The notes under the pieces are model-generated. The model saw only the letters and a list, made by a program, of their open reading frames with translations. It was not told the DNA's origin and made no database searches. Made by a program: the position numbers and the translations under genes. A DNA stretch of 64,000 bases, taken from NCBI GenBank assembly GCA_035255465.1, contig DATEZP010000060.1, forward strand, positions 5,159 through 69,158, written 5' to 3'. Positions within the stretch are counted from its first letter, which is position 1. Every line of letters begins with the position of its first letter. This DNA is from Holophagaceae bacterium. Lineage in GTDB: Bacteria; Acidobacteriota; Holophagae; Holophagales; Holophagaceae. Below are positions 17,145 through 64,000 of the stretch, piece by piece.

Positions 17145-17486
17145 TCAGCCCCTGACGATGTCGACCGAGATCTCCACCGCCGGGATCGTTCCCCGGTTCT
17201 CCAACCAGTGGAGGGTGTTCCGATCCTCGGGCCAGCCCACCCCCGGCCCATACTCCGTGGCGACGCCATTGCGATGGTCGGTGATGGTGCCCTGCAGGAT
17301 GTAGACGGTGCCCGGCCGATCCTTATGGTCGTGGACCGGGCCGAAGACGGCGCCGGGCTCCATCGTCACCATGCGCATGCGAAGCTGCCGCCCAGCCATG
17401 CCCTCGATCTCAGGGCCAAGGTCAACGGTCGAAAGCAACTTCACTGTGACACCCCTGGTCTCAGGCGCCGATTCCTCATTGCTCAT
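17145..17486 (-). CDS. Cupin-domain protein
   Basis: MSNEESAPE...MRMVTMEPGAVFGPVHDHKDRPGTVYILQG. Start chosen at 17486. Confidence 0.65.
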   Translation of the reverse strand: MSNEESAPETRGVTVKLLSTVDLGPEIEGMAGRQLRMRMVTMEPGAVFGPVHDHKDRPGTVYILQGTITDHRNGVATEYGPGVGWPEDRNTLHWLENRGTIPAVEISVDIVRG

Positions 17487-17576
17487 CGGACCCTCCTCTC
17501 GTTGCTCTGGGGCTAGCTTTTCGAAAGCACCAGTGGTGGCGCATAGCGCCAGCGTCTGGTGCATGGAGTGGTTAGG

Positions 17577-18149
17577 CTACTCTTGCGCCTGCTTCGCAGC
17601 TTGTGCTTTTGGCTGCCACCCAAGGATTCTCGCAAGTGTTCGCTCGGCGAGTTCTGGGACAAACCTAGTTGGCGAAGCAGAGAACATTGCTGCGCCGGAT
17701 GATTGCTTCTGGTGAGTAGAAGACGCGACTAACCTTTTGTCCTGTAGATCGAATAATTCTAACGAGAAGGTTGCTCGATCTGGGTTCGAACTCCATTCCG
17801 TAGCGTTATCTTCCCAATGAGTGAAGGTTCCCTTGAATACATGTGTGTATCCTAGCCGCTCAGCCTCCTTGAAGCCGTCAGAGAGATCCTTTGAATCGAC
17901 AGAAGTAACGGTGCATCCATGAATCATCAATTGTTCCTTCAGGGAAGAGACCATTGCTTGGCCTGATCCAAAAGTTGGATCTTGCCCCCGTTCATGACCA
18001 TCGGGGATATTCAGCACGACAAATTTGGAGTTGGTAGGGATTTGGTAGCCAGGCATGACTTGGCCGGTGGTGATACTAATCGGCATCGCGCAGCCCACAA
18101 ATCCAAACATGATTGCCGCAATTGAAATTGAAGACATTAGCCGCATCAT
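17577..18149 (-). CDS. Lipoprotein (DUF4823-like); locally low-GC gene
   Basis: MMRLMSSISIAAIMFGFVGCA lipobox. Gene and its 5' flank (to about 18260) are about 50% GC versus about 70% in the neighbours. Confidence 0.6.
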   Translation of the reverse strand: MMRLMSSISIAAIMFGFVGCAMPISITTGQVMPGYQIPTNSKFVVLNIPDGHERGQDPTFGSGQAMVSSLKEQLMIHGCTVTSVDSKDLSDGFKEAERLGYTHVFKGTFTHWEDNATEWSSNPDRATFSLELFDLQDKRLVASSTHQKQSSGAAMFSASPTRFVPELAERTLARILGWQPKAQAAKQAQE

Positions 18150-46851: not shown

Positions 46852-47619
46852 ATGATTCCGATCCTTCCCTTCCTCATGGCGGGCGATCCGTCCTTGGAGG
46901 CGCTGCCCCAGCTCCTCTCCGAAGCCCGGGCCCTGGGCCTCGAAGCGCTGGAGCTGGGCCTGCCCCATTCGGATCCCATCGCCGATGGCCCCGTCCTCCA
47001 AGCGGCCGCCCATCGGGCCATCGGGCGCGGCGCCACGCCCCTCCGGGTGCTGGAACTCCTCGCTGGAATTTCAGACAGCCCTGACCTTGTGTTGTTCACC
47101 TATCTGAATCCCCTCCTCCAGATCGGGGCCCAGCGGCTCCTCGAGCTGCTGGCGCCCACACCCGTGAAGAGCCTCCTGATCGTGGATCTGCCCTTCGGGG
47201 AGGAACCCGGATTCGAGGGCCGCCTGCGCGAAGCCGGCTATCCCGTCATCCCGCTGCTGGCCCCCACCACGGATCCCCTTCGGGCGGCGCGGTTGCTGGA
47301 CGAACGCCCCGATCCGGGGCCCACCGCGCCCTTCGCGCAGCGCTTCGCCTATGTGGTGGCCCGGCTCGGTGTCACCGGCGGCGCCAGCGCCATGGATCTG
47401 GGTCCGGTGGAAGCCCGGGTGGCGGGCCTTCGCGCCATCACTTCCCGCCCCCTGGCCGTAGGGTTCGGGCTGTCCGATGCCGGAAGCCTCCAGGCCATCC
47501 GGGAGCTCGGCGCCACGCCCGTCATCGGCAGCGCCCTGGTGGCCGAACTCGCGGCGGGGGGCACCCTTCGCGGCAGCCTCGTGCCACGCCTCGCGCCGGT
47601 TACCGCGGCACGATCCTAG
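46852..47619 (+). CDS. trpA: Tryptophan synthase alpha chain
   Basis: MIPILPFLMAGDPS; LELGLPHSDPIADGPVLQ. Confidence 0.85.
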   Translation: MIPILPFLMAGDPSLEALPQLLSEARALGLEALELGLPHSDPIADGPVLQAAAHRAIGRGATPLRVLELLAGISDSPDLVLFTYLNPLLQIGAQRLLELLAPTPVKSLLIVDLPFGEEPGFEGRLREAGYPVIPLLAPTTDPLRAARLLDERPDPGPTAPFAQRFAYVVARLGVTGGASAMDLGPVEARVAGLRAITSRPLAVGFGLSDAGSLQAIRELGATPVIGSALVAELAAGGTLRGSLVPRLAPVTAARS

Positions 47620-50269: not shown

Positions 50270-50298
50270 GGCGAGGGCCGGGCTGAATCCGAGCTGAT

Positions 50299-50543
50299 CT
50301 AGGAGCGTGTCCAAGTAACCGGTGGGGCTGCCGCCCCAGCCCCCTCTCCCTATCACAGGCCCCACTGGGGCCTGTTCCCACGAAGCTGAGCTTCGTGGAG
50401 GGCGGAACCGGTTGAAACCAAAGGGGCCTGATCCGTTGTCGGCGCGCTTGCACGATGACACCGCATCGCGCCGCGCGCGCCTCCTCGACTGAGGCCCGTT
50501 TGGTTTCAACGCGGCTCCCGCCGATTCCTTGGACACGCTCCTA
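50299..50543. mobile_element. MITE-like element, copy B (about 245 bp; 17-bp TIR CTAGGAGCGTGTCCAAG; internal hairpin GTTGAAACCAAAGGGGCC / GGCCCGTTTGGTTTCAAC)
   Basis: Terminal inverted repeats and inner hairpin match copy A (4903..5173); the remaining interior diverges. Confidence 0.55.
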
Positions 50544-50561
50544 GGGGAAGGGATCCGTCCC

Positions 50562-53500
50562 CTAGATCGGGCGCCTGGATTCCCGCTCCAGATTGGGATT
50601 CAGCGCGCGGGCCTCCCGCAGCACCGCGGCGGCTTCGGCGGCTTTCCCGAGGCCCTCCAGGAGGCGCCCTTGCCAGAGGGCCAGTTCCGCGCTCCGGGGA
50701 TTCGCCTGGCGGGCCTTCTGCAGGGCCGGCACCAGCGCCGGGAGCCCCTGCTTCCGGGCGAGGGCGAGGCGGACGCGCAAGAGGAGGGCCCCCTCGGAAT
50801 CGGGGATGGCCTTGATCGCCACCTCCGCCCCGGGCCAATCGCCCTTCAGGATGGCGCACAGGGCCTGGTGGTTCAGGGCCTCCCGGCTGCGGGGATTGAC
50901 GGCCAGGGCCTTCTCCACGTGCTGGCCGCCGGTGGCCAGATCGGCGGCCCGACTGGCCGGCGTCCACTCGGCCCGGAGCAGGTAGGCCTCCGCCAGCCAT
51001 TGATGGGTGAGGAAGGAATTGGGGTTCATGGCCAACGCCTCCTGATAGGCGGCGATGGACCGATCCAGGTAAGGCTTGGGATCTCCGCCTTGCCACCGTT
51101 CGTACAGCGCCGCCACTTTCAAGCTGCCGCCTTCGCTGGCCGGATGCCCCACCCAGGGTCGGAGGCTCATGGCCTCCTTGAAGCAGCGGGTGGCTTCCTC
51201 CACCAGGGGCCGGGGATCGCCGCCGTGATGCAGGGCCCATTCGGCCTGGGCCGAGAGGCAGTTGCCTAGGTTGTTGAGGAGGAAATCCTTGATCTGGGGC
51301 CGGACGAGCGCACCTCGCAGCCCTGCCACGGCCCGGGCCAGGGTGGGCGTGGGATCCTGGCCCTGATCGGCCTCCCAGCTGGCCCGGGTGCGCAGCAGCG
51401 TGCCGAGGTTGTTCCAGAGCTCGTTGTCCTCCGGCTGGAGCTTGAGCCCCATTTCCGCGGCTTCGGCGGCGGCCTGCAGGGGCAGGCTGGGATCCTGGCC
51501 CAACCGGAGCAGGTGCATGCCCCAGAGGCGGAAGAGGGCCGAGCGTGCGCTCCAGGCCCGGGGGCTGCCGGAGTCCACCGCGATGGACCGGTCCGACGCG
51601 GCCAGGGCCTGGTCGAAGGCGGGTTTGGCATCCCGGGCCAGGTCGATGGCGATGGCCAGCTGCAGTTGGCGGGACTGGGCCTGGGAAAGGTGGATGCGGG
51701 GATTGCTGCGCTGCAGGTTCTCGGCGCGGGCCAGGGCCTCCAGGGCGCGGGTGGCCGCGGCCTCGGCCTCCCCGTACTGACCTTTGGCCATGGCGGCTCC
51801 GGCATCGGCGCGGTCCAGCTCCGCCTGGAGCAGCCACCCTTCGGGATTCCAGGCCTGTTGGGTCTGCAGTTTGAGCAGGAACTCCCGGGCCTCCCCGGGG
51901 CGCCCGGCCACCGAAGCGAGGAGGGCCTTGATCTGGGGGCTGTCCGGATCCTGGGCTTGACGCAGGAAGTCCAGCGCCGGCTGGCGCAGCTCCTGTTCGA
52001 GTTCCTTTTGCCGGTCCTCCCGGGCCTTACCGCGCAGGCCCTCCAGGGATTGCTGGTAGAGGTGGGCGAGGGTGGTGCCCAGCACGGAAGCCGTTTCGGG
52101 ATCGCGCTGGCGCCCCTCCTTCCAGGCCTTCAGCAACTCCACCCGGGCCTCATCCCAGAGGCCGAGGGCCGCGTAGCCCCGGCCCAGCGCCACGCGGGCG
52201 GGACCCTGCACCCAGGCGGACCGGCCATTCAACTTCGCGCGCAACTGATCCAGATCCTGGCGCACCCGTGCGAGGGCGGGGCGCACGTCGTGCACGGGCA
52301 GGGCCAGCTCCCGGTTCACTTCCAGTTCCAGCCGGTCCACGGCCTGGGTGGTGGATTGAGCGAGGCTGCCTTGGAGCCGCGTCTGGCGCCAATTCCAGAG
52401 GGAGGTGGCCAACAGCACCACGGCGAGCGAGGCGCCAAGGGTGAGGAGCAGGCGGGGGCCTTGCTTCCGGGCCCGCTTGCGCAGCCGGTATCCCCAGCTG
52501 GCGGGGTGGGCGTGGATGGGATCCCCTTCGAGGAAGCGGCGCAGATCCTCGCCGAAGGCCTGGGCGGTGGGATAGCGTCGCGCCGGATCCTTGTCCATGG
52601 CCTTGAGGATCACGACTTCCAGATCCAGTGGGAGATCGGCCCGCAGGGAGCGCGGCGAGGGCGGATCCTCCTCCTGCACGCGACGCAGCAGTTCCCAGGT
52701 GGTGGTGGCTTCGAAGGGCAGCTGACCGGTGAGGGCGGTGTAGAGCGTGGCGCCCAGGCCGTAGACATCGCCCCGGGGATCGGGCTCTTCCCCGCGAAGC
52801 ACCTCCGGCGCGGAGAAGGCGGGTGTGCCAATGAGGATGCCGGGCAGGGTGGCTTCCGTGGATTCCATGTTGCGGGCCAATCCGAAGTCCACCAGGAAGG
52901 GGTGCCAGGGGCCCTCGCCCTTCCGCTCCAGCAACACGTTGCCGGGCTTGATATCCCGGTGGAGGATGCCGCTGCGATGGCAGGCTTCGAGGGCCTCGGC
53001 CACCTGCACCGTGAGCAGCACCGTCTCCCGCAGGCCCAGCTCCGATCGGGCCTGGGCCAGGGTGGGCCCATCGATGTACTGGAGCACCAGGTGGGGGCGT
53101 TCCTCGTCCTGGATCACTTCGAAGACGCGCCCCACGTAGGGATGGTTCAACTGGGCCTGGGAGCGGGCCTCCCGGAGGAACCGGTTCCAGGTTTCGGGAT
53201 CCAGGTGCTTGAGGAACTTCAAGGCCACCGTGCGTTCCAGCCGTCGGTCGTAGGCTTTGAAGACGATGCCCATGCCGCCTTCCCCCAATTTGGAGATGGG
53301 CTCGAAGCGATCCGTCAACCGCTCCGGAAAGGAGGCCAGATCATCGGGCGCCGAGATGGGGGTGTGGTCGAGGTGGAATTCCTGCAGGAGTTCACCCAGA
53401 GGGCCCGACGCGAAGAGTCCTTGGGCCCGGAGTACCTCGAAGCGCATGAGCCAATCGCCCTCGGAGAGCGTAGGCGAATCCTGGGGGCGCGGCCCGAAGA

Positions 53501-53582
53501 TCGCGTCGAAGTTGAGCAGGCCCCGATCCATGGCCGCCCGGAGGAACCTCAGACGTTGGAGGGAAGGAGTGGACTGGGGCAC
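50562..53582 (-). CDS. Serine/threonine protein kinase with a TM segment and long C-terminal TPR-repeat region
   Basis: GEGGMGIVFKAYD, ALKFLK, HRDIKPGNVLL, DFGLAR, GTPAFSAPE; then a TM helix and TPR repeats. Confidence 0.85.
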   Translation of the reverse strand: MPQSTPSLQRLRFLRAAMDRGLLNFDAIFGPRPQDSPTLSEGDWLMRFEVLRAQGLFASGPLGELLQEFHLDHTPISAPDDLASFPERLTDRFEPISKLGEGGMGIVFKAYDRRLERTVALKFLKHLDPETWNRFLREARSQAQLNHPYVGRVFEVIQDEERPHLVLQYIDGPTLAQARSELGLRETVLLTVQVAEALEACHRSGILHRDIKPGNVLLERKGEGPWHPFLVDFGLARNMESTEATLPGILIGTPAFSAPEVLRGEEPDPRGDVYGLGATLYTALTGQLPFEATTTWELLRRVQEEDPPSPRSLRADLPLDLEVVILKAMDKDPARRYPTAQAFGEDLRRFLEGDPIHAHPASWGYRLRKRARKQGPRLLLTLGASLAVVLLATSLWNWRQTRLQGSLAQSTTQAVDRLELEVNRELALPVHDVRPALARVRQDLDQLRAKLNGRSAWVQGPARVALGRGYAALGLWDEARVELLKAWKEGRQRDPETASVLGTTLAHLYQQSLEGLRGKAREDRQKELEQELRQPALDFLRQAQDPDSPQIKALLASVAGRPGEAREFLLKLQTQQAWNPEGWLLQAELDRADAGAAMAKGQYGEAEAAATRALEALARAENLQRSNPRIHLSQAQSRQLQLAIAIDLARDAKPAFDQALAASDRSIAVDSGSPRAWSARSALFRLWGMHLLRLGQDPSLPLQAAAEAAEMGLKLQPEDNELWNNLGTLLRTRASWEADQGQDPTPTLARAVAGLRGALVRPQIKDFLLNNLGNCLSAQAEWALHHGGDPRPLVEEATRCFKEAMSLRPWVGHPASEGGSLKVAALYERWQGGDPKPYLDRSIAAYQEALAMNPNSFLTHQWLAEAYLLRAEWTPASRAADLATGGQHVEKALAVNPRSREALNHQALCAILKGDWPGAEVAIKAIPDSEGALLLRVRLALARKQGLPALVPALQKARQANPRSAELALWQGRLLEGLGKAAEAAAVLREARALNPNLERESRRPI

Positions 53583-53635
53583 GGTGCCTTTAGCCTAATC
53601 CTTCCCATGGCGCCTGGGCAGTGAAGACTGTGGAA

Positions 53636-55445: not shown

Positions 55446-56620
55446 CAGGGACGCTCCACGGCCATGGCGATGGCGTTGCCGCCGCCGAGGCAGAGGGCGG
55501 CGATGCCGCGCTTCTTGCCGTGGCGCTCCAGGGCGTGGAGCAGGGTGGCCATGACCCGGGCGCCGCTGGCGCCGATGGGGTGCCCCAGGGCCACGGCGCC
55601 GCCATGGACGTTGACGCGGTCCGCAGGGAGCTTCAGTTCATTGACGGTGGCCACCAGCTGCACGGCGAAGGCCTCGTTGATCTCCCAGAGGTCCACCTCC
55701 GCCACGGACCAACCCACTTTGGCCAGGAGCTTCTGGATGGCCAGCACGGGCGCCATGGTGACCCACTCGGGATCCAGGCCCGCGGTGGCGGAGCCCAGGA
55801 TGCGCGCCTGGATGGGCAGGCCGTGGGACTTGGCGTAGGACTCGGTGGTGACGAGGGCGGCCGCGGCGCCGTCGTTGACGCTGGGCGCATTGCCGGCGGT
55901 GACGGTGCCGTCCTTCTTGAAGGCGGGCTTCAGCTTGCCCAGCACCTCGAGGCTCGTGTCGGCGCGGGGGCCTTCATCGGTGTCGACGACGACGTCGCCC
56001 TTCTTCCCCGCGACGGTAATGGGGGCGATTTCCGCTTTGAAGGCGCCGGATTCCATGGCCTTCAGGGCCTTCTGATGGGAGGCGAGGCTCCAGGCATCCT
56101 GCATCTCACGGGTAACGCCGTACTTCTCGGCCACCAGCTCGCCGGTGGTGCCCATGGCCTGATCCGTCATGGCGCAGTGGAGGCCGTCGAACATCATGGA
56201 GTCGATGGCCTGGGCGTGACCCATGCGGGCGCCGGCCCGCAGCTTGGGCATGAGGTAGGGGGCATTGGACATGCTCTCCATGCCCCCGGCGAGGATCACG
56301 TCATGATCCCCGGCCAGCACGCCCTGGGCGGCCAATTGGATGGCCTTGAGGCCGGAGCCGCACACTTTGTTGATGGTGAGGGCGGAGGTGGAGGAGGGCA
56401 GGCCCCCGCGCAGGGCGGCCTGGCGGGCCGGCGCCTGGCCCACGCCCGCGCTGAGCACGTTGCCGAAGATGGCTTCCGTGGGCGCGGCGCCGGGCACGGC
56501 GGCCAGCAGCTGCTTGATCACCTGGGCCGCCAGATCCGGGGCGGCCAGGGAGGCGAGCCCGCCCTGGAACTTGCCGATGGGGCTGCGGAGGGCTTTGACG
56601 ATGACGGCGTGGTCGGACAT
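55445..56620 (-). CDS. Acetyl-CoA C-acetyltransferase (thiolase II)
   Basis: [41 protein letters not shown]. Confidence 0.9.
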
Positions 56621-56644
56621 GGGGGCTCCTTCGGGGAATAGAAG

Positions 56645-56739
56645 TCACCACCAAGGCACCAAGACACCAAGAAAAGCTAAAGAAGAATTCGAGAGCAGGT
56701 CATTCAGCTTTTCTTGGTGCCTTGGTGTCTTGGTGGTCA
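56645..56739. repeat. Intergenic hairpin repeat, family B (copy 3)
   Basis: tcaccaccaaggcaccaagacaccaagaaaagc ... gcttttcttggtgccttggtgtcttggtggtca. Confidence 0.6.
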
Positions 56740-57273
56740 GTACTTTTTCTTCCTGGGCAATTCGTCCAGGCTGCTCAGATCCAGCGCCTCGAGGTTGAGG
56801 GTGGGCGCGGGCTGGGTGTAGAGCTCGGGGGCCTCGCTTTGGATGTGGCGGCGGAAGCGGTCGAGCAGGGCATCCACATCCTGCAGCAGGCGAAGGCGAT
56901 CCATGCGGAGGTTGCGGAGTTGCACTTCCAGCTCCACCACTTGGTGCTGGGCGTCGCGCATGATCTCCTCGGCCTTGAACTGGGCCTCCCGCAGGAGCAG
57001 ATCCTTCTCCCGGGTGGCGGATTCGAGGAGGTCCTCCTTGGTGCGCTGGGCCTGCAGCAAGGTCTCGCGGAAGATGCGGTCCTGATCCTGGTACTGCCGG
57101 AGACGCTCCCGGTTGTCGAGCACTTCCTCCTTCAGCTTGTTGTTCTCGGCCTGGATCTCTTCCCACTCCGCGGCCAGCTCGTGGAGGAAGGCCCGCACTT
57201 CGCCCTCATCCAGCCCCCCGAAGGACTTCTTTTCGAATTCTCGCCGTTGGATGTCGAGGGGTGTGTACTTCAC
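56737..57273 (-). CDS. divIVA: DivIVA-domain protein
   Basis: MKYTPLDIQRREFEKKSFGGLDEGEVRAFL. Confidence 0.8.
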   Translation of the reverse strand: MKYTPLDIQRREFEKKSFGGLDEGEVRAFLHELAAEWEEIQAENNKLKEEVLDNRERLRQYQDQDRIFRETLLQAQRTKEDLLESATREKDLLLREAQFKAEEIMRDAQHQVVELEVQLRNLRMDRLRLLQDVDALLDRFRRHIQSEAPELYTQPAPTLNLEALDLSSLDELPRKKKY

Positions 57274-57634: not shown

Positions 57635-58744
57635 ATGCGCATCGGGATCAGCTGCTATTCCACCTTCGGCGGTTCCGGCGTCGTGGCCACCGAGGTGGGG
57701 AAGGCTTTGGCGGCCCGGGGACACGAGGTTCACCTCCTGAGCCCCACGGTGCCGCCCCGCCTGCTGGGCTTCGAAGACCGCATCTTCTTCCACGAAGTGA
57801 CGGCCTCGCCCTATCCCCTCTTCGAGGCAGCCCCCTTCAGCATCGCCCTGGCTTCGAAAATGGCGGACGTGGCCCAGCACCACAACCTCGAGATCATGCA
57901 CGCCCACTACGCGATCCCCCACGCCAGCGCAGCCCTGCTGGCCCGCATGGCCGTGGGCAACCAACTGAAGGTGGTGACCACGTTGCACGGCACGGACATC
58001 ACCGTGGTGGGCGCCGATCCCAGCTACCTGCCCATGGTGAAGCTCGCCATCCGCGCCTCGGATGGCGTCACCGCCGTGAGCGAATACCTGCGGGAGGAGA
58101 CCTACCGTACCTTCCAGGTGCAGCGCCCCATCGAGGTGATCCCCAACTTCGTGGAGCCCCCTTCCACGGAACGCCCGGAATGCCGCCAATGGCTGGCCCC
58201 GGAGGGCGCGGCGGTGCTCACCCACATCTCCAACTTCCGCCCCGTGAAGAACGTCATGGACGTGATGAAGGTGTTCGAGAAGGTGCGCACCCAGATCCCG
58301 GCGCGGCTGGTGATGGTGGGCGATGGCCCGGATCGCGTGGAGGCGGAGAACTACGCCCGGAACCATGGCTTCGCCGATGAGGTGCGCTTCACGGGCAAGC
58401 AGCTGGACATCTCCTCCGTGCTGGATTGTTCGGATGTCTTCCTGCTGCCCAGCGCCACGGAAAGCTTCGGCTTGGCTGCGTTGGAGGCCATGGCCCACCG
58501 CGTGCCCGTGGTGGCCACCCGGGTGGGCGGCCTTCCGGAGGTGTTCCGGGATGGCGTGGATGGCTTCCTCTGCCCCTTGGGGGATGTGGATGCCATGGCG
58601 GCCGCCTGCCTCAAGCTCCTCAAGGATCCGGCGCTCCGCGCTGCCTTTGGCGAGAGCGCGCGCACCCGCGCGCTGACTACGTTTGCGGAAGGGCCCATCG
58701 TGGATCAGTACGAGGCCCTCTACGAGCGCGTCCTCGCTTCCTGA
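57635..58744 (+). CDS. bshA: GT4 glycosyltransferase, BshA-like (N-acetyl-alpha-D-glucosaminyl L-malate synthase)
   Basis: [37 protein letters not shown]; ...[16 protein letters not shown]. Confidence 0.8.
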
Positions 58745-58793
58745 ACGGCCCCTGGAAAACCGCTCAAACCCGCGCTAGAATCACTGATTCCAC

Positions 58794-58868
58794 TGGGGAG
58801 TCGCCAAGTGGTAAGGCAGCAGGTTTTGATCCTGCCTATCGAGGGTTCGAATCCTTCCTCCCCAACCA
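58794..58868 (+). tRNA. tRNA-Gln (anticodon TTG), CCA encoded
   Basis: Acceptor TGGGGAG/CTCCCCA; anticodon arm GCAGG-ttTTGat-CCTGC; T-loop TTCGAAT; 3' ACCA. Confidence 0.8.
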
Positions 58869-58934
58869 CAAGCTCCCGGTGACCCCGGGGGCTTTGCCGT
58901 GGCGGATGAAGGCTGATCCAGGGCGGGTTTGAGT

Positions 58935-59180
58935 TTGGGAATTCAAAAATCATTCGCTAATAACGTTCCATGGTCCAAATGGGCTCCTTGGAATTGACCT
59001 GCTTATAGGTTAAAAATTGAATTCGAAAGGGGGCATGTCCGAAATTTAAATCATAGGATAAAGGTATTTACAAAGAAATCTGTTCAAAATCAGATTTGAT
59101 TTGACTAGGTAATATATACTTTATCCGTGATTTGAATCACGCAGAAAATGCATGGATGAATTGAATTAAGACCTAAAGTT
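58935..59180. promoter_or_regulatory. AT-rich (about 35% GC) regulatory gap with repeated GAATTGA/GAATTCA motifs and a CRP/FNR-type palindrome CGTGATTTGAATCACG (59126..59141) about 93 bp upstream of the NHL-cytochrome operon
   Basis: The palindrome matches both TGTGA-N6-TCACA and TTGAT-N4-ATCAA cores. TTGACT and TATACT hexamers nearby. Confidence 0.5.
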
Positions 59181-59233
59181 TGACCTCAACAGCCCCTTAC
59201 TCAAGGAACCGGCTGAACCTGGGGAACCCGGTG

Positions 59234-60301
59234 ATGAGGACCCTTCAAACCCGCCTGATGACAGCGCTCCTGGTGCTGGGCGGACTGTGCGCTCCGCTGG
59301 CCGCGCAGAAGGCCTCGGGGAAGTTGGACGTGAGCAGCCTGGTCTGGCCGCCCCCACCCGCCCCCACGCGGATGAAGTGGGTTTCCGAGTACCGGAACGA
59401 ATTCGACCTCGGGGCCAAGAAACGCACCAGCTTCCTCGACCGCCTCGCGGGCAAGGCCCAGGATTCCCTCTGGCTCAAGCAGCCCGTGTCCATCGCGGTG
59501 GATGACAACGGCACCGTGTTCGTCGGGGACACCCAGCTGGGTGTGGTGGGCATGGACGCCGCCAAGAAGCGCATGTGGCTCTTCTCGAAGCTCTCCCCCG
59601 AAGCCCCCACCGCCGCCACGGGCCTCGCGGTGGACTCCAAATTCGTCTACGCCACCGACAGCGCCCAAAGCCAGCTCTCCGTGTTCGACAAGGAAGGTCG
59701 CCGCCTGAAGACCCTGGGCCCGGCCGAAGGGATCCAGCGCCCCGTGGGCGTGGCCGTGGATGAAGCCAAGGATCTGGTGGTGGTGGTCAACGGCGGCGAC
59801 CACACGATCCTGCTGTTCAATCGCGCCCTCAAGCCGATCAAGAAGATCGGTTCGCGCGGTGACAAGCCCGGCCAGCTGAACTACCCCACCTACTGCTGCA
59901 TCGTTCCCGGCACCGGGTTCGCCGTGGCCGACACCGCCAACTTCCGGGTTCAGTACTTCACCTACGAAGGCAAGTTCCTCAGCACCTTCGGCAAACAGGG
60001 CGACTATTCGGGCAGCTTCTCCATGCCCAAGGGCATGGCCGTGGATCCCGAAGGCAACCTCTACGTGGTCGACGCGAAGTTCTGCAACTTCCAGGTGTTC
60101 CGCAAGGACGGCCAGGTGCTGCTCTTCGTCGGCACCGGCGGTACGGCGCCCGGTACCTTCCAGATCCCCTGCGGCATCGCCTTCACGAAGGATGGCTTCG
60201 TCTACGTGGCCGACACCGTGAACGCCCGCATCCAGCGGTTCCAGTACGTGGCCGCTCCCCCCACCGAATCTCCAGTTCCCCCCCAGAAGGGTCGCGACTA
60301 G
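59234..60301 (+). CDS. Secreted NHL-repeat beta-propeller protein
   Basis: Signal peptide MRTLQTRLMTALLVLGGLCAPLAAQ. Repeated NHL units (QPVSIAVDDNGTVFVGD, PVGVAVDEAKDLVVVVN, MPKGMAVDPEGNLYVVD, IPCGIAFTKDGFVYVAD). GGGGAA RBS. Confidence 0.75.
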   Translation: MRTLQTRLMTALLVLGGLCAPLAAQKASGKLDVSSLVWPPPPAPTRMKWVSEYRNEFDLGAKKRTSFLDRLAGKAQDSLWLKQPVSIAVDDNGTVFVGDTQLGVVGMDAAKKRMWLFSKLSPEAPTAATGLAVDSKFVYATDSAQSQLSVFDKEGRRLKTLGPAEGIQRPVGVAVDEAKDLVVVVNGGDHTILLFNRALKPIKKIGSRGDKPGQLNYPTYCCIVPGTGFAVADTANFRVQYFTYEGKFLSTFGKQGDYSGSFSMPKGMAVDPEGNLYVVDAKFCNFQVFRKDGQVLLFVGTGGTAPGTFQIPCGIAFTKDGFVYVADTVNARIQRFQYVAAPPTESPVPPQKGRD

Positions 60302-60347
60302 CGCCCCTTCAGATCTCCCCCCCAACCCTCCTATTTGGAGACGCACC

Positions 60348-61052
60348 ATGAAACGCCTTCTTCTCTTCCTTGTCGCCGCCGGCCTCGGGCTTTCCGCCCA
60401 GACCAGTGTCGTGAACACCAAGCACAACCTCAGCGCCGGCGGAACCGCCTACAGCGCGGGCGCCGCCACGACCTACACCCAGGTCTGCAAGTTCTGCCAC
60501 TCCCCTCACGGCGCCAACGTGGCCGACAAGCAGCTCGTGCCCCTGTGGGGCCATGCGAACACCACGCAGCTCTTCACCATGTACGCCAGCAACCCCAACC
60601 AGACGCTGAAGACCACGGCCATCGATTCCCAGCCCAGCGGCCCCAGCCTCGCCTGCCTCTCCTGCCATGACGGCACCGTGGCCGTGAACGCCCGCTATAC
60701 CTATGGCGACGCCACCGCGCCCCGTTGGACCTACGGCAACATGAATGACACCAACGCCTCCGTCATCGCCGACTTCGATGTCACCACCGATGCCAAGGGC
60801 AACAAGATGGGCACGCTGAAGCACAGCATCGCCGGCGAAACCAAGAACGACCTCTCGACCGTGCACCCCATCGCCATCAAGTACGACACCACCGCCAACA
60901 CCCAGCTGGTGGCGAACCCCGTCGGCGTGAAGCTCTTCAACGGCAAGGTGCAGTGCGCCTCCTGCCACGACGCCCACGGCACGGCCAACAGCATGTTCCT
61001 CCGCGTGTCCTCCACGAACTCGGCGCTTTGCCTCGCCTGCCACGTGAAGTAA
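60348..61052 (+). CDS. Tetraheme c-type cytochrome (two paired CXXCH motifs), secreted
   Basis: Signal peptide MKRLLLFLVAAGLGLSAQ. Heme sites CKFCH, CLSCH, CASCH, CLACH. Confidence 0.8.
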   Translation: MKRLLLFLVAAGLGLSAQTSVVNTKHNLSAGGTAYSAGAATTYTQVCKFCHSPHGANVADKQLVPLWGHANTTQLFTMYASNPNQTLKTTAIDSQPSGPSLACLSCHDGTVAVNARYTYGDATAPRWTYGNMNDTNASVIADFDVTTDAKGNKMGTLKHSIAGETKNDLSTVHPIAIKYDTTANTQLVANPVGVKLFNGKVQCASCHDAHGTANSMFLRVSSTNSALCLACHVK

Positions 61053-61132
61053 CCGCCTGAACCAACGTAGCGAAGCGGGGGAGGGCAGTTCCTTCCCCCG
61101 CTTCTTTGCGGATCCCCACTGAGTTCGAGTCC

Positions 61133-62911
61133 ATGAAACTACGGGTTCCCATGATCCTGCTGGCCGTCCCCCTCGCGGTGGGCGCGCAGGAGGTGGCCAC
61201 CCTGGACCACAGCCTTTCCCTGTCCTACTTCGGGAACCAGGCCTCCCTGGGTGGGCTGAATTCCCGCAGCACCTACACCAAGACCGACTACCAGTTCGAC
61301 CTCGGCATGCCCATCCTGGCCTATCGCCTCGGGGCGCTGAACCTGGGGGGCTCCGTCGGCTACGTGCGCCAGAGCTTCGATGGCGAGGCGGATTCGGCCA
61401 CCGGGCTGAACTCCGTTTCGGTGGCCGGCGCGCTCTTCCCCTACCAGCCGTACCACATCACCTTCGACGTGACGCGATCCACGGCGCCGAGCCTGTTTGG
61501 CAGTGGCTCCAACACCAGCCAGACCCTGGGCCTGGATTTCCTCTATCGGGGCCGTGCGATCCAGGACATCCGGATCTCCTACCGCCACGGGGACCTGTCG
61601 GGCGATGGTCTGAGCGGATCCTTCGATTCCTGGGTGGTGACCGAGAACGAGCGGCGGGGCCGCACCGACCTCCGCATCTACGGGGATCACCAGGAAGCTT
61701 CCTTCGGCGAAGGCTCCAGCTGGAAGAGCTCCACCTTCACCGCCTCCACCCGGACGGCCCTGACCGGGGATTGGACTTGGAACAACAGCCTTTCGGCCTT
61801 CGATTTCCAAGGCACCCGACTCGCCCAGGTGGGGACGAGCCTGCTGGGCTCCCAGGGGCCCTGGACTTCCACCACGATTTTCGATGCCGCCTTCACCGAA
61901 TCCGCCACGAGCCGGGAGCGCTCCGGTGGCCTGAGCCAATCCCTCGCCCGCACCTGGGGCCGGGTCTCCGCCTTCGGCATCGCGGGCGTGACCGGGGGCT
62001 CCTCGTCGGGCACGGGCGGAACGGCTTCCACGGAGAACCTGATCCTCGGCGCCAGCTACCGCCTCACGCCGGAATGGACGTTGATGGGGGATGTGAGCGG
62101 CGCATGGAGCCGCACCCCCTCCGCCGGGACTGGCTCCGGGGCGGGCGCGGGCCCCACGCGATCCACCCATGTGGGCCTCACCTGGGGTGGCTCCATGACG
62201 GACACCATCCGGCACGCCTTCTTTTTCTGGAGTGATCTGCGGTTCCAGCGGCGCATCGAGGAGGATTACCCCCCCGACTACCTGCCGCCGGAGCTGGCGA
62301 AGGCCCAGATGCGGCGGCGCATGGATCAGCAGGGTTCCCTCCAATTCTCGGCGGACGCCTATCGCCTTGAGAACGGCGGGCCGGGCCATCAGCAGTGGTT
62401 CCGCATGCAAGGGGGCCTCAACTTCAACAACGGCCTGATGCTCCAGACCATCGGCGATCTGCGCACGGACGACCGCTTTTCCAATCGGGAACGGGTGTTC
62501 CGGAACGAGCACTTGATGCTGTTCGGCGCCTACCGGATCGGGCAGGCCTCCCTCCGCTTCAACTACGGGTACTCCAAGGCCACGGTGCGGGATGCGGATG
62601 GGATCGCTGTGACTCCGGCGAATCCATCCCCCGTGTCCACGGGCAGCGACCGCTCCGCCACCTACTATGGCCTTGGCGTGAACGCCATGGCCTTCACCAT
62701 TCCCTACGGCGTCATGGTGCTCCGGAACAACGATGCCATGGGGGTGGGCACCACCTCGGTGCTGACCTACCTCTCCGCGGGGTTCCGCAAGGTCCGCTTC
62801 AACCTCAACTACCAGCGGGGCTGGCGCACGGATGGCCTGCGCACCAGCCAGATCTCCCTCCAGCTCGCGCGGTGGTTTGATACCATCCCGGTCTGGGGGC
62901 TGGGCGATTGA
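61133..62911 (+). CDS. Outer-membrane beta-barrel (porin-like) protein, candidate conduit of a porin-cytochrome complex
   Basis: Signal peptide MKLRVPMILLAVPLAVGAQE. Roughly 590 aa rich in G/S/T/Y/N/R/W with no long hydrophobic stretches. Confidence 0.65.
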   Translation: MKLRVPMILLAVPLAVGAQEVATLDHSLSLSYFGNQASLGGLNSRSTYTKTDYQFDLGMPILAYRLGALNLGGSVGYVRQSFDGEADSATGLNSVSVAGALFPYQPYHITFDVTRSTAPSLFGSGSNTSQTLGLDFLYRGRAIQDIRISYRHGDLSGDGLSGSFDSWVVTENERRGRTDLRIYGDHQEASFGEGSSWKSSTFTASTRTALTGDWTWNNSLSAFDFQGTRLAQVGTSLLGSQGPWTSTTIFDAAFTESATSRERSGGLSQSLARTWGRVSAFGIAGVTGGSSSGTGGTASTENLILGASYRLTPEWTLMGDVSGAWSRTPSAGTGSGAGAGPTRSTHVGLTWGGSMTDTIRHAFFFWSDLRFQRRIEEDYPPDYLPPELAKAQMRRRMDQQGSLQFSADAYRLENGGPGHQQWFRMQGGLNFNNGLMLQTIGDLRTDDRFSNRERVFRNEHLMLFGAYRIGQASLRFNYGYSKATVRDADGIAVTPANPSPVSTGSDRSATYYGLGVNAMAFTIPYGVMVLRNNDAMGVGTTSVLTYLSAGFRKVRFNLNYQRGWRTDGLRTSQISLQLARWFDTIPVWGLGD

Positions 62912-64000
62912 TGGGCCGCGAAACCGAATGGAACGGGAAGGCCTCCGCCATCCGGGCCTTGGGAACGCGAAGCTGGATCGGCGTGGTGTTGGCCCTGTTC
63001 ATCGGGTCCCTCGGAGCCGTGGATGGGCCCAAGGCCACCCCCCAGAAAACCAAGGCCGCCGTGGCCCACGGGGATTGCCGCCTCTGCCACCGCACCCACG
63101 CTTCAGCCATGAGCGCCGATGGCAAGACCCCGGCCGGCAAGAAGCAGGGCCCAGGCGCCTTCGCGCCCAGCGTGCTGGATCAGGTGTGCCTGGAATGCCA
63201 CCAGGGCCCCCCGGTGCCTGCCAAGGATTTCGAAGCGAGCAAGTTGGAGCCCTGGTCGGGTTCGGGTTCCAGCCATGTGGATGGCCCCTTCCTGGAGCGG
63301 GCCCGCACCTTCACCCGGATCGTGGACCGGGGCAATGGGCGCAAGCTCGTGCTCAAGGCCCAATGTGACGGGTGCCATGACGTGCATTCCAAGAACCGCA
63401 CCTCCAGCCTGCTACCCCTGGCCTTTGACGCGCAGGGCAAGGTCCAGCGCATCCGCCCCGCTAATGCCAGCCAGGTCTGCTTCGCCTGCCACGCGGGGCA
63501 GGAGGCCGTGAAGTTCTTCCGGGGCGACGGGGATCTCGGGGCCTTGATGGGCCCCACGGCGCAATCGGCCCACCGGCCCGGGGCCACGGCCTCGGCCCGG
63601 GCGGACTTGCCCAGCCTGCGCACGGGGTTCTTCACGGGCACGCTGGATTGCACCTCCTGCCACGACAATCCCAATCCCGCCGGGCCCAAAGGGCCGCACA
63701 CCTCTCCATTCCCCCACCTGCTCAAGGCCAGCTACGGAAGGGAAGGGGAGATCGCCACCGCGGGGCCCCGCGCGAACGAACTCTGCTTCAACTGCCACGA
63801 CCGCATCTCCATCGAAGGCAATCAGTCCTTCCCCTTCCACGCCCAGCACGTCAGCGGGTTCACGGGCCTGGGCGCCACCCGGGCCGGCAACCGGGCGCTG
63901 CCGGGTAAGCGGGCTGGGGCGGCGCCCCTGCCGTCCTGGAAACCCTTCACCTTCTCCGGCGCCGGCTCCTCCGGAGGCTTCGGCCAGCCCGCCAACTGCG
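62911..64000 (+). CDS. Multiheme c-type cytochrome (at least 6 CXXCH in the visible part), 3' truncated by the window edge
   Basis: ATG overlaps the porin stop (ATGA). N-terminal hydrophobic segment WIGVVLALFIGSLGAV. Heme sites CRLCH, CLECH, CDGCH, CFACH, CTSCH, CFNCH. Not in the ORF track (no stop). Confidence 0.75.
   Translation, partial: MGRETEWNGKASAIRALGTRSWIGVVLALFIGSLGAVDGPKATPQKTKAAVAHGDCRLCHRTHASAMSADGKTPAGKKQGPGAFAPSVLDQVCLECHQGPPVPAKDFEASKLEPWSGSGSSHVDGPFLERARTFTRIVDRGNGRKLVLKAQCDGCHDVHSKNRTSSLLPLAFDAQGKVQRIRPANASQVCFACHAGQEAVKFFRGDGDLGALMGPTAQSAHRPGATASARADLPSLRTGFFTGTLDCTSCHDNPNPAGPKGPHTSPFPHLLKASYGREGEIATAGPRANELCFNCHDRISIEGNQSFPFHAQHVSGFTGLGATRAGNRALPGKRAGAAPLPSWKPFTFSGAGSSGGFGQPANC

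What the first reader, a model, noticed from the sequence alone, without database searches (positions are those of the whole stretch)
58869..59233. AT-rich island with CRP/FNR-type palindrome between tRNA-Gln and the cytochrome operon
About 245 bp at about 35% GC in a roughly 70% GC genome, immediately 3' of a tRNA. It contains the perfect palindrome CGTGATTTGAATCACG. It also contains an imperfect one (AAATCTGTTCAAAATCAGATTT), four GAATTGA/GAATTCA repeats, and sigma70-like hexamers (TTGACT, TATACT). The GTGA-N6-TCAC / TGAT-N4-ATCA core is the signature of CRP/FNR-family regulators, which control anaerobic respiration and EET genes in other bacteria. AT-richness next to a tRNA also fits an integration hotspot or xenogeneic-silencing target.
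Basis: partly seen in the sequence, partly recalled or inferred. Interest (0 to 1): 0.55.

Follow-up and report, generated by a model that had tools for sequence, protein, structure and literature searches.

The report
Conserved operator upstream of cytochrome-nanowire operon
The AT-rich gap after tRNA-Gln is the control region of an OmcE-type cytochrome "nanowire" operon in a Holophagaceae bacterium. Its CRP-like palindrome is a regulatory site conserved across the family, but which protein binds it is still open.

Summary
Window 58931-59180 is 33.6% GC in a 67% GC window, the lowest 250 bp by far. The dyad CGTGATT-TG-AATCACG sits at 59126-59141.

The palindrome alone is not statistically remarkable (P about 0.14 in shuffles); its conservation is. 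GTGAy-N4-rTCAC occurs at 22 sites in 13 independent lineage/promoter groups of Holophagaceae/Geothrix. It lies upstream of the orthologous NHL-propeller gene, and often again before the OmcE-like gene, a second NHL/cytochrome operon and a sensor-regulator operon.

The downstream operon is an OmcE-type nanowire cluster; the 234-aa tetrahaem protein matches PDB 7TFS at E=2e-20.

The rest of the island evolves fast (66-77% identity where coding DNA is about 94%). The imperfect palindrome is not conserved. TTGACT and TATACT are only 8 nt apart. Nothing indicates integration at the tRNA.

The core matches the E. coli CRP consensus (GTGAT-N4-ATCAC), so a CRP/FNR-type regulator is my best guess (about 0.45). 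A CopR/CusR-like two-component regulator encoded beside the cluster in many relatives, though not seen in this lineage, is a serious rival (about 0.25).

Verdict: a genuine new cis-regulatory site of a known kind, of moderate interest.

The parts
58753..58781 (+). Sigma70-like promoter of tRNA-Gln (TGGAAA-17-TAGAAT). This is context: it shows that the tRNA is a separate transcription unit.
   Evidence: It is the only promoter-like hit in 58600-59400. It is conserved in L001 and L002.
58794..58868 (+). tRNA-Gln (anticodon UUG).
   Evidence: ARAGORN; Rfam tRNA, 62.5 bits.
58872..58895 (+). GC-rich hairpin plus a short T-run, the likely terminator of the tRNA transcript.
   Evidence: Read from the sequence. 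The stem is kept by compensatory changes in L001, L002, L022 and L023. The T-run is too short for the terminator scan to report it.
58898..59109 (.). Fast-evolving AT-rich spacer. It holds the GAATT[GC]A copies, the non-conserved imperfect palindrome (59077-59098) and TTGACT.
   Evidence: Identity to L001 is 66-77% here, against about 94% in flanking genes. There are almost no conserved columns among the five tRNA-linked relatives, apart from an A-tract.
59111..59117 (.). Conserved AATATAT block, 8 nt 5' of the dyad. Function is unknown; it could be an UP-like element or an alternative -10.
   Evidence: Conserved in window, L001, L002, L022 and L023 but absent in L017. No usable -35 lies upstream of it in the window. 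In L002 the scan finds TTGTCA-18-TATATT.
59126..59141 (.). 16-bp dyad operator CGTGATT-TG-AATCACG. The core is GTGAy-N4-rTCAC, centred between 59133 and 59134, 100.5 nt before the ATG.
   Evidence: CGTGA and TCACG are invariant in six relatives at 78-99% protein identity, while the inner bases vary. There are 22 sites in 13 groups across Holophagaceae. Intergenic enrichment gives P=4e-4.
59142..59153 (+). Conserved extension CAGAAAATGCAT directly 3' of the dyad. It may hold a weak -35-like TTGnnn in relatives.
   Evidence: TCACGCAGAAA is the longest invariant block of the intergenic alignment.
59172..59181 (+). Conserved CCTAAAGTTT. TAAAGT (59174-59179) is the best -10-like hexamer, which predicts a transcription start near 59186-59188.
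   Evidence: It sits at the same distance from the dyad in window, L001, L002, L022 and L023. Analogous TAnnnT elements lie 29-35 nt after the dyad in the other clades. This is inferred, not mapped.
59221..59226 (+). Ribosome-binding site (GGGGAA here; GGAGGA in relatives).
   Evidence: Sequence and alignment.
59234..60301 (+). First gene of the operon: a secreted NHL-repeat six-bladed beta-propeller.
   Evidence: Pfam NHL, E=1.5e-25. Orthologues head the same cluster in all loci examined.
60348..61052 (+). OmcE-like tetrahaem cytochrome (234 aa, 4 CXXCH).
   Evidence: PDB 7TFS (OmcE filament), E=2.4e-20 over nearly the full length; also 9yuq_N. Pfam Paired_CXXCH_1.
61106..62911 (+). Protein of about 590-600 aa with no Pfam match, at the position of the large beta-barrel of OmcE clusters.
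   Evidence: No Pfam hit. The position is conserved in all loci. The barrel assignment rests on analogy with bioRxiv 10.1101/2025.10.22.684050 and was not tested.
62881..64000 (+). Multihaem cytochrome (about 420 aa in L021) that runs off the window. The stated start is the 5' limit of the open frame, not a mapped start codon.
   Evidence: Pfam Paired_CXXCH_1 and MtrC/MtrF domains II/IV. The full operon is seen in L021.

Best explanation
The tRNA-Gln to NHL spacer is the promoter and operator region of an OmcE-type extracellular cytochrome ('nanowire') operon: NHL propeller, OmcE-like tetrahaem cytochrome, large barrel, multihaem cytochrome, PpiC-type rotamase and a small cytochrome.

Only the promoter-proximal 110 bp or so is under selection. 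Its key element is the 16-bp dyad CGTGAy-N4-rTCACG at 59126-59141.

I read the dyad as the binding site of a dimeric helix-turn-helix regulator, most likely a CRP/FNR-family protein encoded elsewhere in the genome. The site lies just upstream of a weak promoter that lacks a -35 element (-10-like TAAAGT at 59174-59179). From there the regulator would switch the operon on in response to a redox, energy or anaerobiosis signal. This is analogous to cAMP-CRP at the omcA and mtrC promoters of Shewanella.

The distal AT-rich DNA is largely unconstrained spacer.

Shown: the dyad, its conservation, its repetition within the cluster, and the identity of the operon.
Inferred: that a protein binds it, the family of that protein, activation rather than repression, and the transcription start.
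For: 1. Conservation. GTGA-N6-TCAC with at most 1 mismatch lies within 200 nt upstream of the NHL gene in 10 of 14 loci, against about 0.1 expected per locus. Later loci add more sites.
2. Consensus. The 22 sites in 13 groups give GTGAy-N4-rTCAC, with TGA and TCA invariant.
3. Footprint. In the tRNA-linked clade, CGTGA and TCACGCAGAAA are the longest invariant blocks, while the inner 4-6 bases vary. That pattern is typical of a protein-binding site.
4. Contrast with flanks. Window versus L001 is 92% identical in the proximal 100 nt, 66-77% in the distal island and about 94% in coding DNA.
5. Repetition in the cluster. Extra copies precede the OmcE-like gene where it has its own intergenic region (L014 9223, L020 9218, L009 3953). 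Others precede a second NHL/cytochrome operon (L018 5321), an 861-aa multihaem cytochrome gene (L015 3299) and a cytochrome-RR-HK operon (L009 157). Intergenic enrichment gives P=4e-4.
6. Match to CRP. The core equals the E. coli CRP consensus AAATGTGATCTAGATCACATTT at GTGAT-N4-ATCAC (own knowledge).
7. Functional precedent. In Shewanella omcA/mtrC the CRP sites have a degenerate distal half, a conserved proximal xTCAC(A) half, and no -35 element (PMC4417206). The Geothrix clade shows the same asymmetry: ATGAy...ATCAC.
8. Independence from the linked regulator. The dyad persists, invariant, in lineages with no two-component system near the cluster (window, L021, L017, L015, L016). The 130-kb and 494-kb contigs of this lineage do not appear among the top 120 RR or HK homologues.
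9. Operon identity.
Against: - No CRP/FNR-family gene was found in the window or in any locus. This rests on Pfam for 8 size-matched ORFs and on tblastn with E. coli CRP and FNR. The test has low sensitivity, and global regulators need not be linked to their targets.
- No second strong site exists in the other 59 kb of the window (PWM 20.1 for the dyad, 12.2 for the next hit). Every convincing site seen lies inside the EET cluster, which looks more like a local regulon than a global one.
- Using the best -10-like hexamers, the dyad centre falls near -47.5 to -54.5. E. coli CRP activates from -41.5 or -61.5 but not from about -52 (own knowledge).
- The bases flanking the core are usually C and G (CGTGA...TCACG), not T and A as in TGTGA...TCACA.
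- The transcription start is not mapped, so a repressor role cannot be excluded.
Confidence: 0.45

Rival explanations
1. The dyad is the box of the CopR/CusR/HprR-like OmpR-family response regulator. Its gene, together with a 'heavy-metal-type' sensor kinase, sits inside or beside the same cytochrome cluster in many Holophagaceae. The phosphorylated regulator binds the 6-4-6 inverted repeat and activates the cluster promoters, including its own.
For: - An RR (226 aa) plus HK (about 470 aa) pair adjoins the cluster in L014, L018, L020 and L009; only the HK is visible in L003, L004 and L007/8.
- Its best NCBIfam match is TIGR01387 cztR_silR_copR, then HprR and CusR.
- AgrR, a characterised member of the CopR/CusR-type subfamily (PMC7380067), binds a 16-bp 6-4-6 inverted repeat. 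Its promoter-proximal half-site is the better conserved, it is centred at -43.5 'or slightly more upstream', it acts at promoters lacking a -35 element, and it autoregulates positively. CopR and PcoR also bind inverted repeats (PMC7380067).
- The dyad here has the same 6-4-6 geometry, the same proximal-half bias and a similar inferred position.
- It precedes a small-cytochrome-RR-HK operon in L009.
- All convincing sites are local to the cluster.
Against: - The half-site CGTGAT is unlike ATKACA/TGTMAT.
- The RR scores below the TIGR01387 cutoff (243-259 against 279 bits).
- No such RR or HK is in the 64-kb window or within 10 kb of the cluster in L021, L017, L015, L016 or L019. The dyad is nevertheless perfectly conserved in most of these.
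- Close RR orthologues were named only for G. edaphica and G. paludis, not for the dyad-bearing G. alkalitolerans, G. fuzhouensis or SG200. This is weak evidence.
- Six promoters of TCS-linked loci also carry an 11-bp-period direct repeat, TTTAAk-N5-TTTAAGG. That is the more usual kind of OmpR-family site and could be the RR's real target.
Confidence: 0.25
2. The dyad is an operator for another dimeric regulator acting as a repressor, such as a Rex-like redox sensor or an unrelated HTH protein. It would overlap the start of a promoter whose -10 is the conserved AATATAT block just upstream.
For: - AATATAT is conserved 8 nt 5' of the dyad in the five tRNA-linked relatives.
- In L002 the scan finds TTGTCA-18-TATATT, which would put the start at the edge of the dyad.
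- GTGA-N6-TCAC is also the core of Rex operators, TTGTGAA-N4-TTCACAA (own knowledge).
- The spacing between the dyad and the -10-like elements varies by up to 6 nt between clades. A repressor tolerates that better than a face-of-helix activator.
Against: - No usable -35 lies upstream of AATATAT in window, L001, L022 or L023.
- The block is absent in L017 and in all other clades that keep the dyad.
- Positions 5 and 10 of the motif are Y and R, not the A and T of Rex sites.
- tblastn with B. subtilis Rex found nothing, though sensitivity is low.
Confidence: 0.15
3. The AT-rich island is a scar of integration at the tRNA, or a xenogeneic-silencing target, and the palindrome is incidental.
For: - The island lies directly 3' of a tRNA and is the lowest-GC DNA in the window.
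- The cluster sits in different genomic contexts in different lineages.
- A 15-nt imperfect direct repeat (58759 and 59240) and an 11-nt inverted repeat (58922 and 59245) flank the tRNA and island.
Against: - No second copy of the tRNA 3' end exists in the window.
- None of the neighbouring genes that I scanned against Pfam matched an integrase or transposase family.
- The downstream genes have genome-typical GC of about 65%.
- The flanking repeats are not conserved in L001 or L002.
- The dyad and operon are conserved in relatives that have neither the tRNA nor an AT island (L017, L003, L020, L018).
Confidence: 0.05
4. The dyad acts as an RNA hairpin in the 5' leader, for stability or attenuation, rather than as a DNA site.
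For: The sequence can form a 6-bp stem with a 4-nt loop.
Against: - The fold z-score is only -1.76.
- The stem positions are invariant with no compensatory change. The outermost distal base varies (G, A or T) without a matching change in the partner.
- No U-run follows the stem.
- The best -10-like element lies downstream of it, so it is probably not transcribed.
- No Rfam family matches.
Confidence: 0.03

Closest known systems
CRP/FNR-family operators (E. coli CRP consensus AAATGTGATCTAGATCACATTT; FNR TTGAT-N4-ATCAA)
   Same: Same geometry and the same core bases, GTGAT-N4-ATCAC. The half-sites are conserved and the centre is variable. The site lies upstream of a promoter with no good -35 element.
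   Different: The flanks are C/G rather than T/A. The inferred centre is about -50 to -55 rather than -41.5 or -61.5. No cognate gene was identified. The sites seen so far are confined to one gene cluster.
cAMP-CRP-dependent omcA and mtrC promoters of Shewanella oneidensis (PMC4417206)
   Same: A CRP-type site controls outer-surface cytochrome (EET) genes. Several promoters in one cluster each have a site. The distal half is degenerate and the proximal xTCAC half is conserved. There is no -35 element.
   Different: A different phylum and an unrelated cytochrome system (MtrCAB/OmcA versus OmcE-type filament). The Shewanella sites are mapped at -61.5 and -60.5 and shown to bind CRP; here nothing is mapped or bound.
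AgrR/CopR/PcoR/CusR boxes of heavy-metal OmpR-family response regulators (PMC7380067)
   Same: A 16-bp 6-4-6 inverted repeat, with the promoter-proximal half better conserved. The position is slightly upstream of -43.5 at promoters lacking a -35 element. Autoregulation occurs. A homologous RR/HK pair is encoded next to the cluster in many relatives.
   Different: The half-site sequence is CGTGAT, not ATKACA. The RR is below the subfamily cutoff. The TCS was not found near the cluster in this window's lineage.
Rex operators (TTGTGAA-N4-TTCACAA)
   Same: The GTGA-N6-TCAC core, and a link to respiratory and redox genes.
   Different: Positions next to the core are Y/R here, not A/T. No Rex homologue was seen. 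The location does not clearly overlap a promoter.
OmcE nanowire gene clusters of Geobacter and Desulfuromonas (bioRxiv 10.1101/2025.10.22.684050)
   Same: The regulated operon has the same core: beta-propeller lipoprotein(s), an OmcE-like tetrahaem subunit, a large barrel-size protein and multihaem cytochromes.
   Different: It is found here in Acidobacteriota (Holophagaceae), a phylum not among the five listed in that survey. Filament formation is not shown.

Membership tests
CRP/FNR-family binding site | Inverted repeat with a TGTGA-N6-TCACA or TTGAT-N4-ATCAA type core (TGA-N6-TCA). | tested here: met
   GTGAy-N4-rTCAC across 22 sites, with TGA and TCA invariant. The window site is GTGATTTGAATCAC.
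CRP/FNR-family binding site | A CRP/FNR-family regulator (cNMP-binding plus HTH_Crp) is encoded by the organism. | tested here: inconclusive
   None among 8 size-matched ORFs of the window. There were no tblastn hits to E. coli CRP or FNR in the window or loci. Only 64 kb of the genome is available.
CRP/FNR-family binding site | Site centred near -41.5 (class II) or -61.5 and further upstream (class I) relative to the transcription start. | tested here: inconclusive
   The start is not mapped. The best -10-like hexamers put the centre at about -47.5 to -54.5. An alternative -10 (CAnnTT) in six promoters would give about -63.5.
CRP/FNR-family binding site | The motif recurs upstream of many functionally related operons (a regulon). 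| tested here: inconclusive
   It recurs at up to three promoters per EET cluster. There is no further site in the other 59 kb of the window. Whole genomes could not be scanned.
CRP/FNR-family binding site | Direct binding by the protein. | not testable with these tools
   Needs EMSA, DAP-seq or ChIP.
CopR/CusR/AgrR-type response-regulator box | 16-bp 6-4-6 inverted repeat with the promoter-proximal half better conserved. | tested here: met
   The geometry is CGTGAy-N4-rTCACG. The proximal C is 92% conserved and the distal G 85%. In the Geothrix clade the distal half degenerates to ATGA. Compared with PMC7380067.
CopR/CusR/AgrR-type response-regulator box | Half-site sequence ATKACA / TGTMAT (cop/cus box). 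| tested here: not met
   The half-site is CGTGAy.
CopR/CusR/AgrR-type response-regulator box | Cognate RR/HK genes are linked to the regulated operons. | tested here: inconclusive
   Linked in L003, L004, L007/8, L009, L014, L018 and L020. Not found in the window, L021, L017, L015, L016 or L019.
tRNA-linked integrated element | Direct repeat of the tRNA 3' end (attL/attR) bounding the inserted DNA. | tested here: not met
   The tRNA 3' 25-mer occurs once in the window, allowing up to 3 mismatches.
tRNA-linked integrated element | Integrase or mobility genes, and atypical composition of the cargo. | tested here: not met
   None of the neighbouring genes that I scanned against Pfam matched an integrase or transposase family. 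The downstream operon is about 65% GC. Only 5 kb of the downstream side is in the window; L021 shows no integrase within 10 kb.
Rex operator | TTGTGAA-N4-TTCACAA, with A/T directly inside the GTGA/TCAC cores. | tested here: not met
   Those positions are T/C and A/G respectively.
OmcE-type cytochrome nanowire cluster (the regulated operon) | A tetrahaem subunit of about 230 aa homologous to OmcE, next to beta-propeller and large barrel genes. | tested here: met
   4 CXXCH motifs. PDB 7TFS, E=2.4e-20, residues 13-234 against 18-232. An NHL propeller lies upstream and a 601-aa protein with no Pfam match downstream. Synteny holds in all loci. Filament formation was not tested.

The most novel reading that the evidence does not exclude
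The dyad, together with the TTTAAk-N5-TTTAAGG direct repeats and the cluster-linked CopR/CusR-like sensor-regulator pair, forms a dedicated and previously undescribed regulatory circuit. It would switch on OmcE-type cytochrome nanowires in Acidobacteriota. This would be the first cis-regulatory code for nanowire expression outside the Desulfuromonadia, in a phylum not yet listed as having OmcE-type filaments.
Probability: 0.25. Interest if true: 0.6.

Novelty: new member of a known kind. Interest (0 to 1): 0.4.

Why it matters
Cytochrome nanowires are central to extracellular electron transfer. In the papers I searched I found nothing on how their genes are controlled in Geothrix or Acidobacteriota.

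This result gives a precise, conserved 16-bp target in front of an OmcE-type cluster. The target is present in cultivable Geothrix species (G. edaphica, G. alkalitolerans, G. fuzhouensis), so the regulator and its signal can be identified with standard experiments.

It also separates the functional 110 bp from a conspicuous but largely unconstrained AT-rich spacer. Finally, it flags an OmcE-like system in a sixth phylum.

Tried and rejected
- **Rfam.** Searches of the region at permissive E-value, and of the whole window at gathering score, found only the tRNA.
- **RNA folding.** Folding and alignment folding of the leader gave z=-1.76 and no covariation.
- **att-type repeat.** The tRNA 3' end has no second copy.
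- **TTGACT/TATACT as a promoter.** Rejected: the spacer is 8 nt.
- **Imperfect palindrome 59077-59098.** Rejected: not conserved in L001.
- **PWM scan of the window for further sites.** Nothing scored above 12.2, against 20.1 for the dyad.
- **tblastn with E. coli CRP and FNR and B. subtilis Rex,** against the window and all loci. No hits, but the queries came from memory and sensitivity is low.
- **Pfam on 8 ORFs of regulator size.** None is a CRP/FNR protein.
- **Small ORFs in the island.** Nothing credible.
- **Sigma54 and ECF-type promoter readings.** Tried by eye; the spacings did not fit.
- **Look-ups of the window's own NHL and barrel proteins** to extend the contig. Not on record. The near-identical L021 was used instead.
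- **Checking for the RR/HK in dyad-bearing isolates** through homologue lists and cluster members. Inconclusive.
- **Literature on Geothrix and Crp/Fnr regulation.** Nothing found.
Full report
**What is there**

The window is 67.2% GC. A tRNA-Gln(UUG) lies at 58794-58868. It has its own sigma70-like promoter, TGGAAA-17-TAGAAT at 58753-58781. A GC-rich hairpin with a short T-run follows at 58872-58895.

Between the tRNA and the next gene (ATG at 59234) lies a 365-bp spacer. Its core, 58931-59180, is 33.6% GC. That is by far the lowest 250 bp in the window; the next lowest is 45.6%. It is also the lowest of all intergenic gaps.

- CGTGATTTGAATCACG (59126-59141) is a 7-nt-arm inverted repeat around a non-symmetric TG.
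- TTGACT and TATACT are only 8 nt apart, so they cannot be a -35/-10 pair.

Taken alone the palindrome is unremarkable. Arms of 7 or more appear in 14% of shuffles of the island.

**What the spacer controls**

The downstream genes, all on the + strand, are:
- a secreted NHL-repeat beta-propeller (59234-60301);
- a 234-aa tetrahaem cytochrome (60348-61052);
- a 601-aa protein with no Pfam match (61106-62911);
- a multihaem cytochrome that runs off the window.

The tetrahaem protein matches the OmcE filament subunit of Geobacter sulfurreducens (PDB 7TFS) at E=2.4e-20 over almost its whole length.

The near-identical contig L021 shows the full operon: NHL, OmcE-like, 592 aa, 420-aa multihaem, PpiC-type rotamase and a 268-aa cytochrome.

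This is the core architecture described for OmcE nanowire clusters: beta-propeller proteins, OmcE, a large beta-barrel and multihaem cytochromes (bioRxiv 10.1101/2025.10.22.684050).

**Comparative evidence for the dyad**

Genome, metagenome and exact-protein look-ups gave about 20 orthologous loci. All are Holophagaceae or Geothrix where named.

- GTGA-N6-TCAC with at most 1 mismatch lies within 200 nt upstream of the NHL gene in 10 of the first 14 loci. About 0.1 is expected per locus.
- The later loci, including cultured G. alkalitolerans and G. fuzhouensis, add more sites.
- In six relatives at 78-99% protein identity, CGTGA and TCACGCAGAAA are the longest invariant blocks of the whole intergenic alignment. 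The inner bases differ in every sequence: TTTGAA, TCTGAA, CTGGGA, CACCGA, TCAGGG, TGGCAG. This is the usual footprint of a dimeric DNA-binding protein.
- In several relatives the dyad recurs inside the cluster:
  - before the OmcE-like gene where that gene has its own intergenic region (L014, L020, L009);
  - before a second NHL/cytochrome operon (L018);
  - before an 861-aa multihaem cytochrome gene (L015);
  - before a small-cytochrome, response-regulator and kinase operon (L009).
- In seven 17-kb loci, 12 hits fall in 7.5 kb of intergenic DNA against 54 in 112 kb of coding DNA (Poisson P=4e-4).
- The 22 sites in 13 groups give the consensus GTGAy-N4-rTCAC.

**What is not conserved**

Window and L001 are about 94% identical in coding DNA and 92% in the 100 nt around and after the dyad. 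They are only 66-77% identical across 58918-59116.

- The imperfect palindrome is gone in L001.
- Two of the four GAATT[GC]A copies differ in L001.
- L002, L022 and L023 share almost nothing in this part apart from an A-tract and general AT-richness.
- Relatives such as L017, L003, L020 and L018 keep the operon and dyad with no tRNA and with GC-rich upstream DNA.

There is no second copy of the tRNA 3' end. None of the neighbouring genes that I scanned against Pfam matched an integrase or transposase family. The operon has normal GC.

So the AT island as such is lineage-specific, weakly constrained spacer. It is not an integration scar, and it is not the functional unit.

**Promoter architecture (inferred)**

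No transcription start is known.

- In the tRNA-linked clade, CCTAAAGTTT is conserved at a fixed distance from the dyad. TAAAGT (59174-59179) starts 34 nt after TCAC.
- The other clades have TAAATT, TAAGGT or TATnnT starting 29-35 nt after the dyad.
- No good -35 element precedes any of these.
- Taking them as -10 elements puts the dyad centre at roughly -47.5 to -54.5, just upstream of the -35 position. That position suits an activator.
- Six promoters from loci that carry a linked two-component system show a second fixed-distance motif: TCAC-N17-TTTAAk-N5-TTTAAGG-N9-CAnnTT. If CAnnTT is the -10 element there, the dyad is near -63.5 and the 11-bp-period TTTAAk repeats overlap the -35 position.
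- A conserved AATATAT block lies 8 nt upstream of the dyad in the tRNA-linked clade. It could instead be a -10 element, which would make the dyad a repressor operator. It lacks a -35 partner in most sequences and is absent elsewhere.
- An RNA-level role is unlikely. The fold z-score is -1.76, there is no covariation, and variation at the outermost pair is uncompensated.

**Who binds the dyad**

*CRP/FNR-type regulator.* The core is identical to the E. coli CRP consensus at GTGAT-N4-ATCAC (own knowledge). The closest functional precedent is cAMP-CRP at the Shewanella omcA and mtrC promoters. Those sites have a degenerate distal half, a conserved proximal TCAC half and no -35 element (PMC4417206).

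Three points count against it:
- no CRP/FNR gene appears in the window or any locus (a weak test);
- no other strong site exists in the remaining 59 kb;
- the inferred position is not canonical.

*Cluster-linked response regulator.* In L003, L004, L007/8, L009, L014, L018 and L020 an OmpR-family regulator and/or its kinase adjoin the cluster. Their best matches are the CopR/CusR/HprR 'heavy-metal' subfamily. AgrR, CopR and PcoR, characterised regulators of the CopR/CusR type, bind 16-bp 6-4-6 inverted repeats. For AgrR the proximal half is the better conserved, the centre is at -43.5 or slightly further upstream, the promoters lack a -35 element, and it autoregulates (PMC7380067). All of this resembles what is seen here.

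Three points count against it:
- the half-site sequence differs from the cop/cus box;
- the pair was not found in this window, within 10 kb in L021, L017, L015, L016 or L019, or on the 130-kb and 494-kb contigs of this lineage in the top homologue lists, yet the dyad is invariant there;
- the TTTAAk direct repeats are a more typical OmpR-family target.

*Rex-type operators* share the GTGA-N6-TCAC core but require A/T where these sites have Y/R.

My weighting is:
- CRP/FNR-type: about 0.45;
- linked response regulator: about 0.25;
- another dimeric regulator or repressor: about 0.15;
- the remaining readings: under 0.1 together.

**Verdict**

The palindrome is a genuine, family-wide operator in front of an OmcE-type extracellular cytochrome operon, and it has the CRP-type consensus.

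The specific regulator, the sign of regulation and the transcription start remain unproven. The other features of the island do not hold up as functional elements.

It is a new member of a known kind of element, a transcription-factor operator. Interest is moderate, mainly because it makes nanowire regulation testable in cultivable Geothrix.

Noticed in passing
window 59234-64000; L021 10001-17523: The operon is an OmcE-type cytochrome-nanowire cluster in Holophagaceae (Acidobacteriota). It comprises an NHL propeller, a 234-aa tetrahaem OmcE homologue (PDB 7TFS, E=2e-20), a protein of about 590 aa, multihaem cytochromes and a PpiC rotamase. A 2025 survey of OmcE homologues lists five phyla, and Acidobacteriota is not among them.
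   Followed up: partly
L014 3408-5497; L018 5455-7541; L020 3302-5403; L009 614-2700; HK only in L003, L004, L007/8: A CopR/CusR/HprR-like response regulator plus a 'heavy-metal-type' sensor kinase is embedded in or next to the cytochrome cluster in many Holophagaceae. It was not found near the cluster in the window's lineage.
   Followed up: partly
L018 7858-7910 and 5250-5320 (-); L014 9237-9290; L020 9232-9285; L009 171-225 and 3967-4020; L007 about 1300-1350: A second conserved promoter motif sits at a fixed distance from the dyad: TCAC-N17-TTTAAk-N5-TTTAAGG(TTCGGG)-N9-CAnnTT. The TTTAAk repeats have an 11-bp period, which is typical of OmpR-family sites. L007/8 keep this motif but have lost the dyad.
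   Followed up: partly
L015 7915-7935, L016, L013, L006, L012 (about 24-40 nt after the dyad): The Geothrix clade has a 10-bp-period direct repeat, CCTATG-N4-CCTATG, between the dyad and the start codon. It also has a strongly conserved block, GGTCGGCTGACAGGTTyCTGTGACGTT. The function of both is unknown.
   Followed up: no
L021 18036-21068 (-), and the equivalent gene in L015-L020: A cytochrome of about 1014 aa with 22 paired-CXXCH hits (about 44 haems) is conserved on the opposite strand at the end of the cluster, next to a 124-128-aa protein of no known family.
   Followed up: partly
window 58759-58773 / 59240-59254 (direct); 58922-58932 / 59245-59255 (inverted): CTCAAACCCGC-type repeats bracket the tRNA and the AT island. 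One copy lies inside the NHL signal-peptide codons, and the 11-nt inverted pair is perfect. The middle copy is not conserved in L001, and the set is absent in L002, so this is probably chance.
   Followed up: partly
L022 1-30; L023 and L024 1-30: Three independent metagenome contigs all end at the same base inside the T-arm of tRNA-Gln, about 390 nt upstream of the NHL gene. This looks like an assembly break at a repeated tRNA sequence.
   Followed up: no
window 17145-18149 (-): The second AT-rich spot of the window (about 46% GC) is coding. It holds a low-GC DUF4823 lipoprotein-like gene (17577-18149) and a cupin gene (17145-17564), possibly acquired by transfer.
   Followed up: partly
window 56618-56800: There is an indel of about 100 nt relative to the 94%-identical L001, in the thiolase to DivIVA intergenic region.
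   Followed up: no
window 47600-53594 (-): Two large signalling proteins lie about 6-11 kb upstream of the operon, and both are conserved in L021. One is a MASE1-CHASE-PAS histidine kinase (about 1000 aa). The other is a Ser/Thr kinase with TPR repeats (about 1010 aa). No link to the operon was tested.
   Followed up: no
window 59097-59106, 59128-59137, 59157-59166: TGAWTTGAMT-like decamers recur at 31- and 29-nt intervals, about three helical turns apart, and the middle one lies inside the dyad. An upstream (G/T)TGAy half-site 31 nt before the dyad is also present in L001, L002, L022 and L023. These could be auxiliary half-sites.
   Followed up: partly
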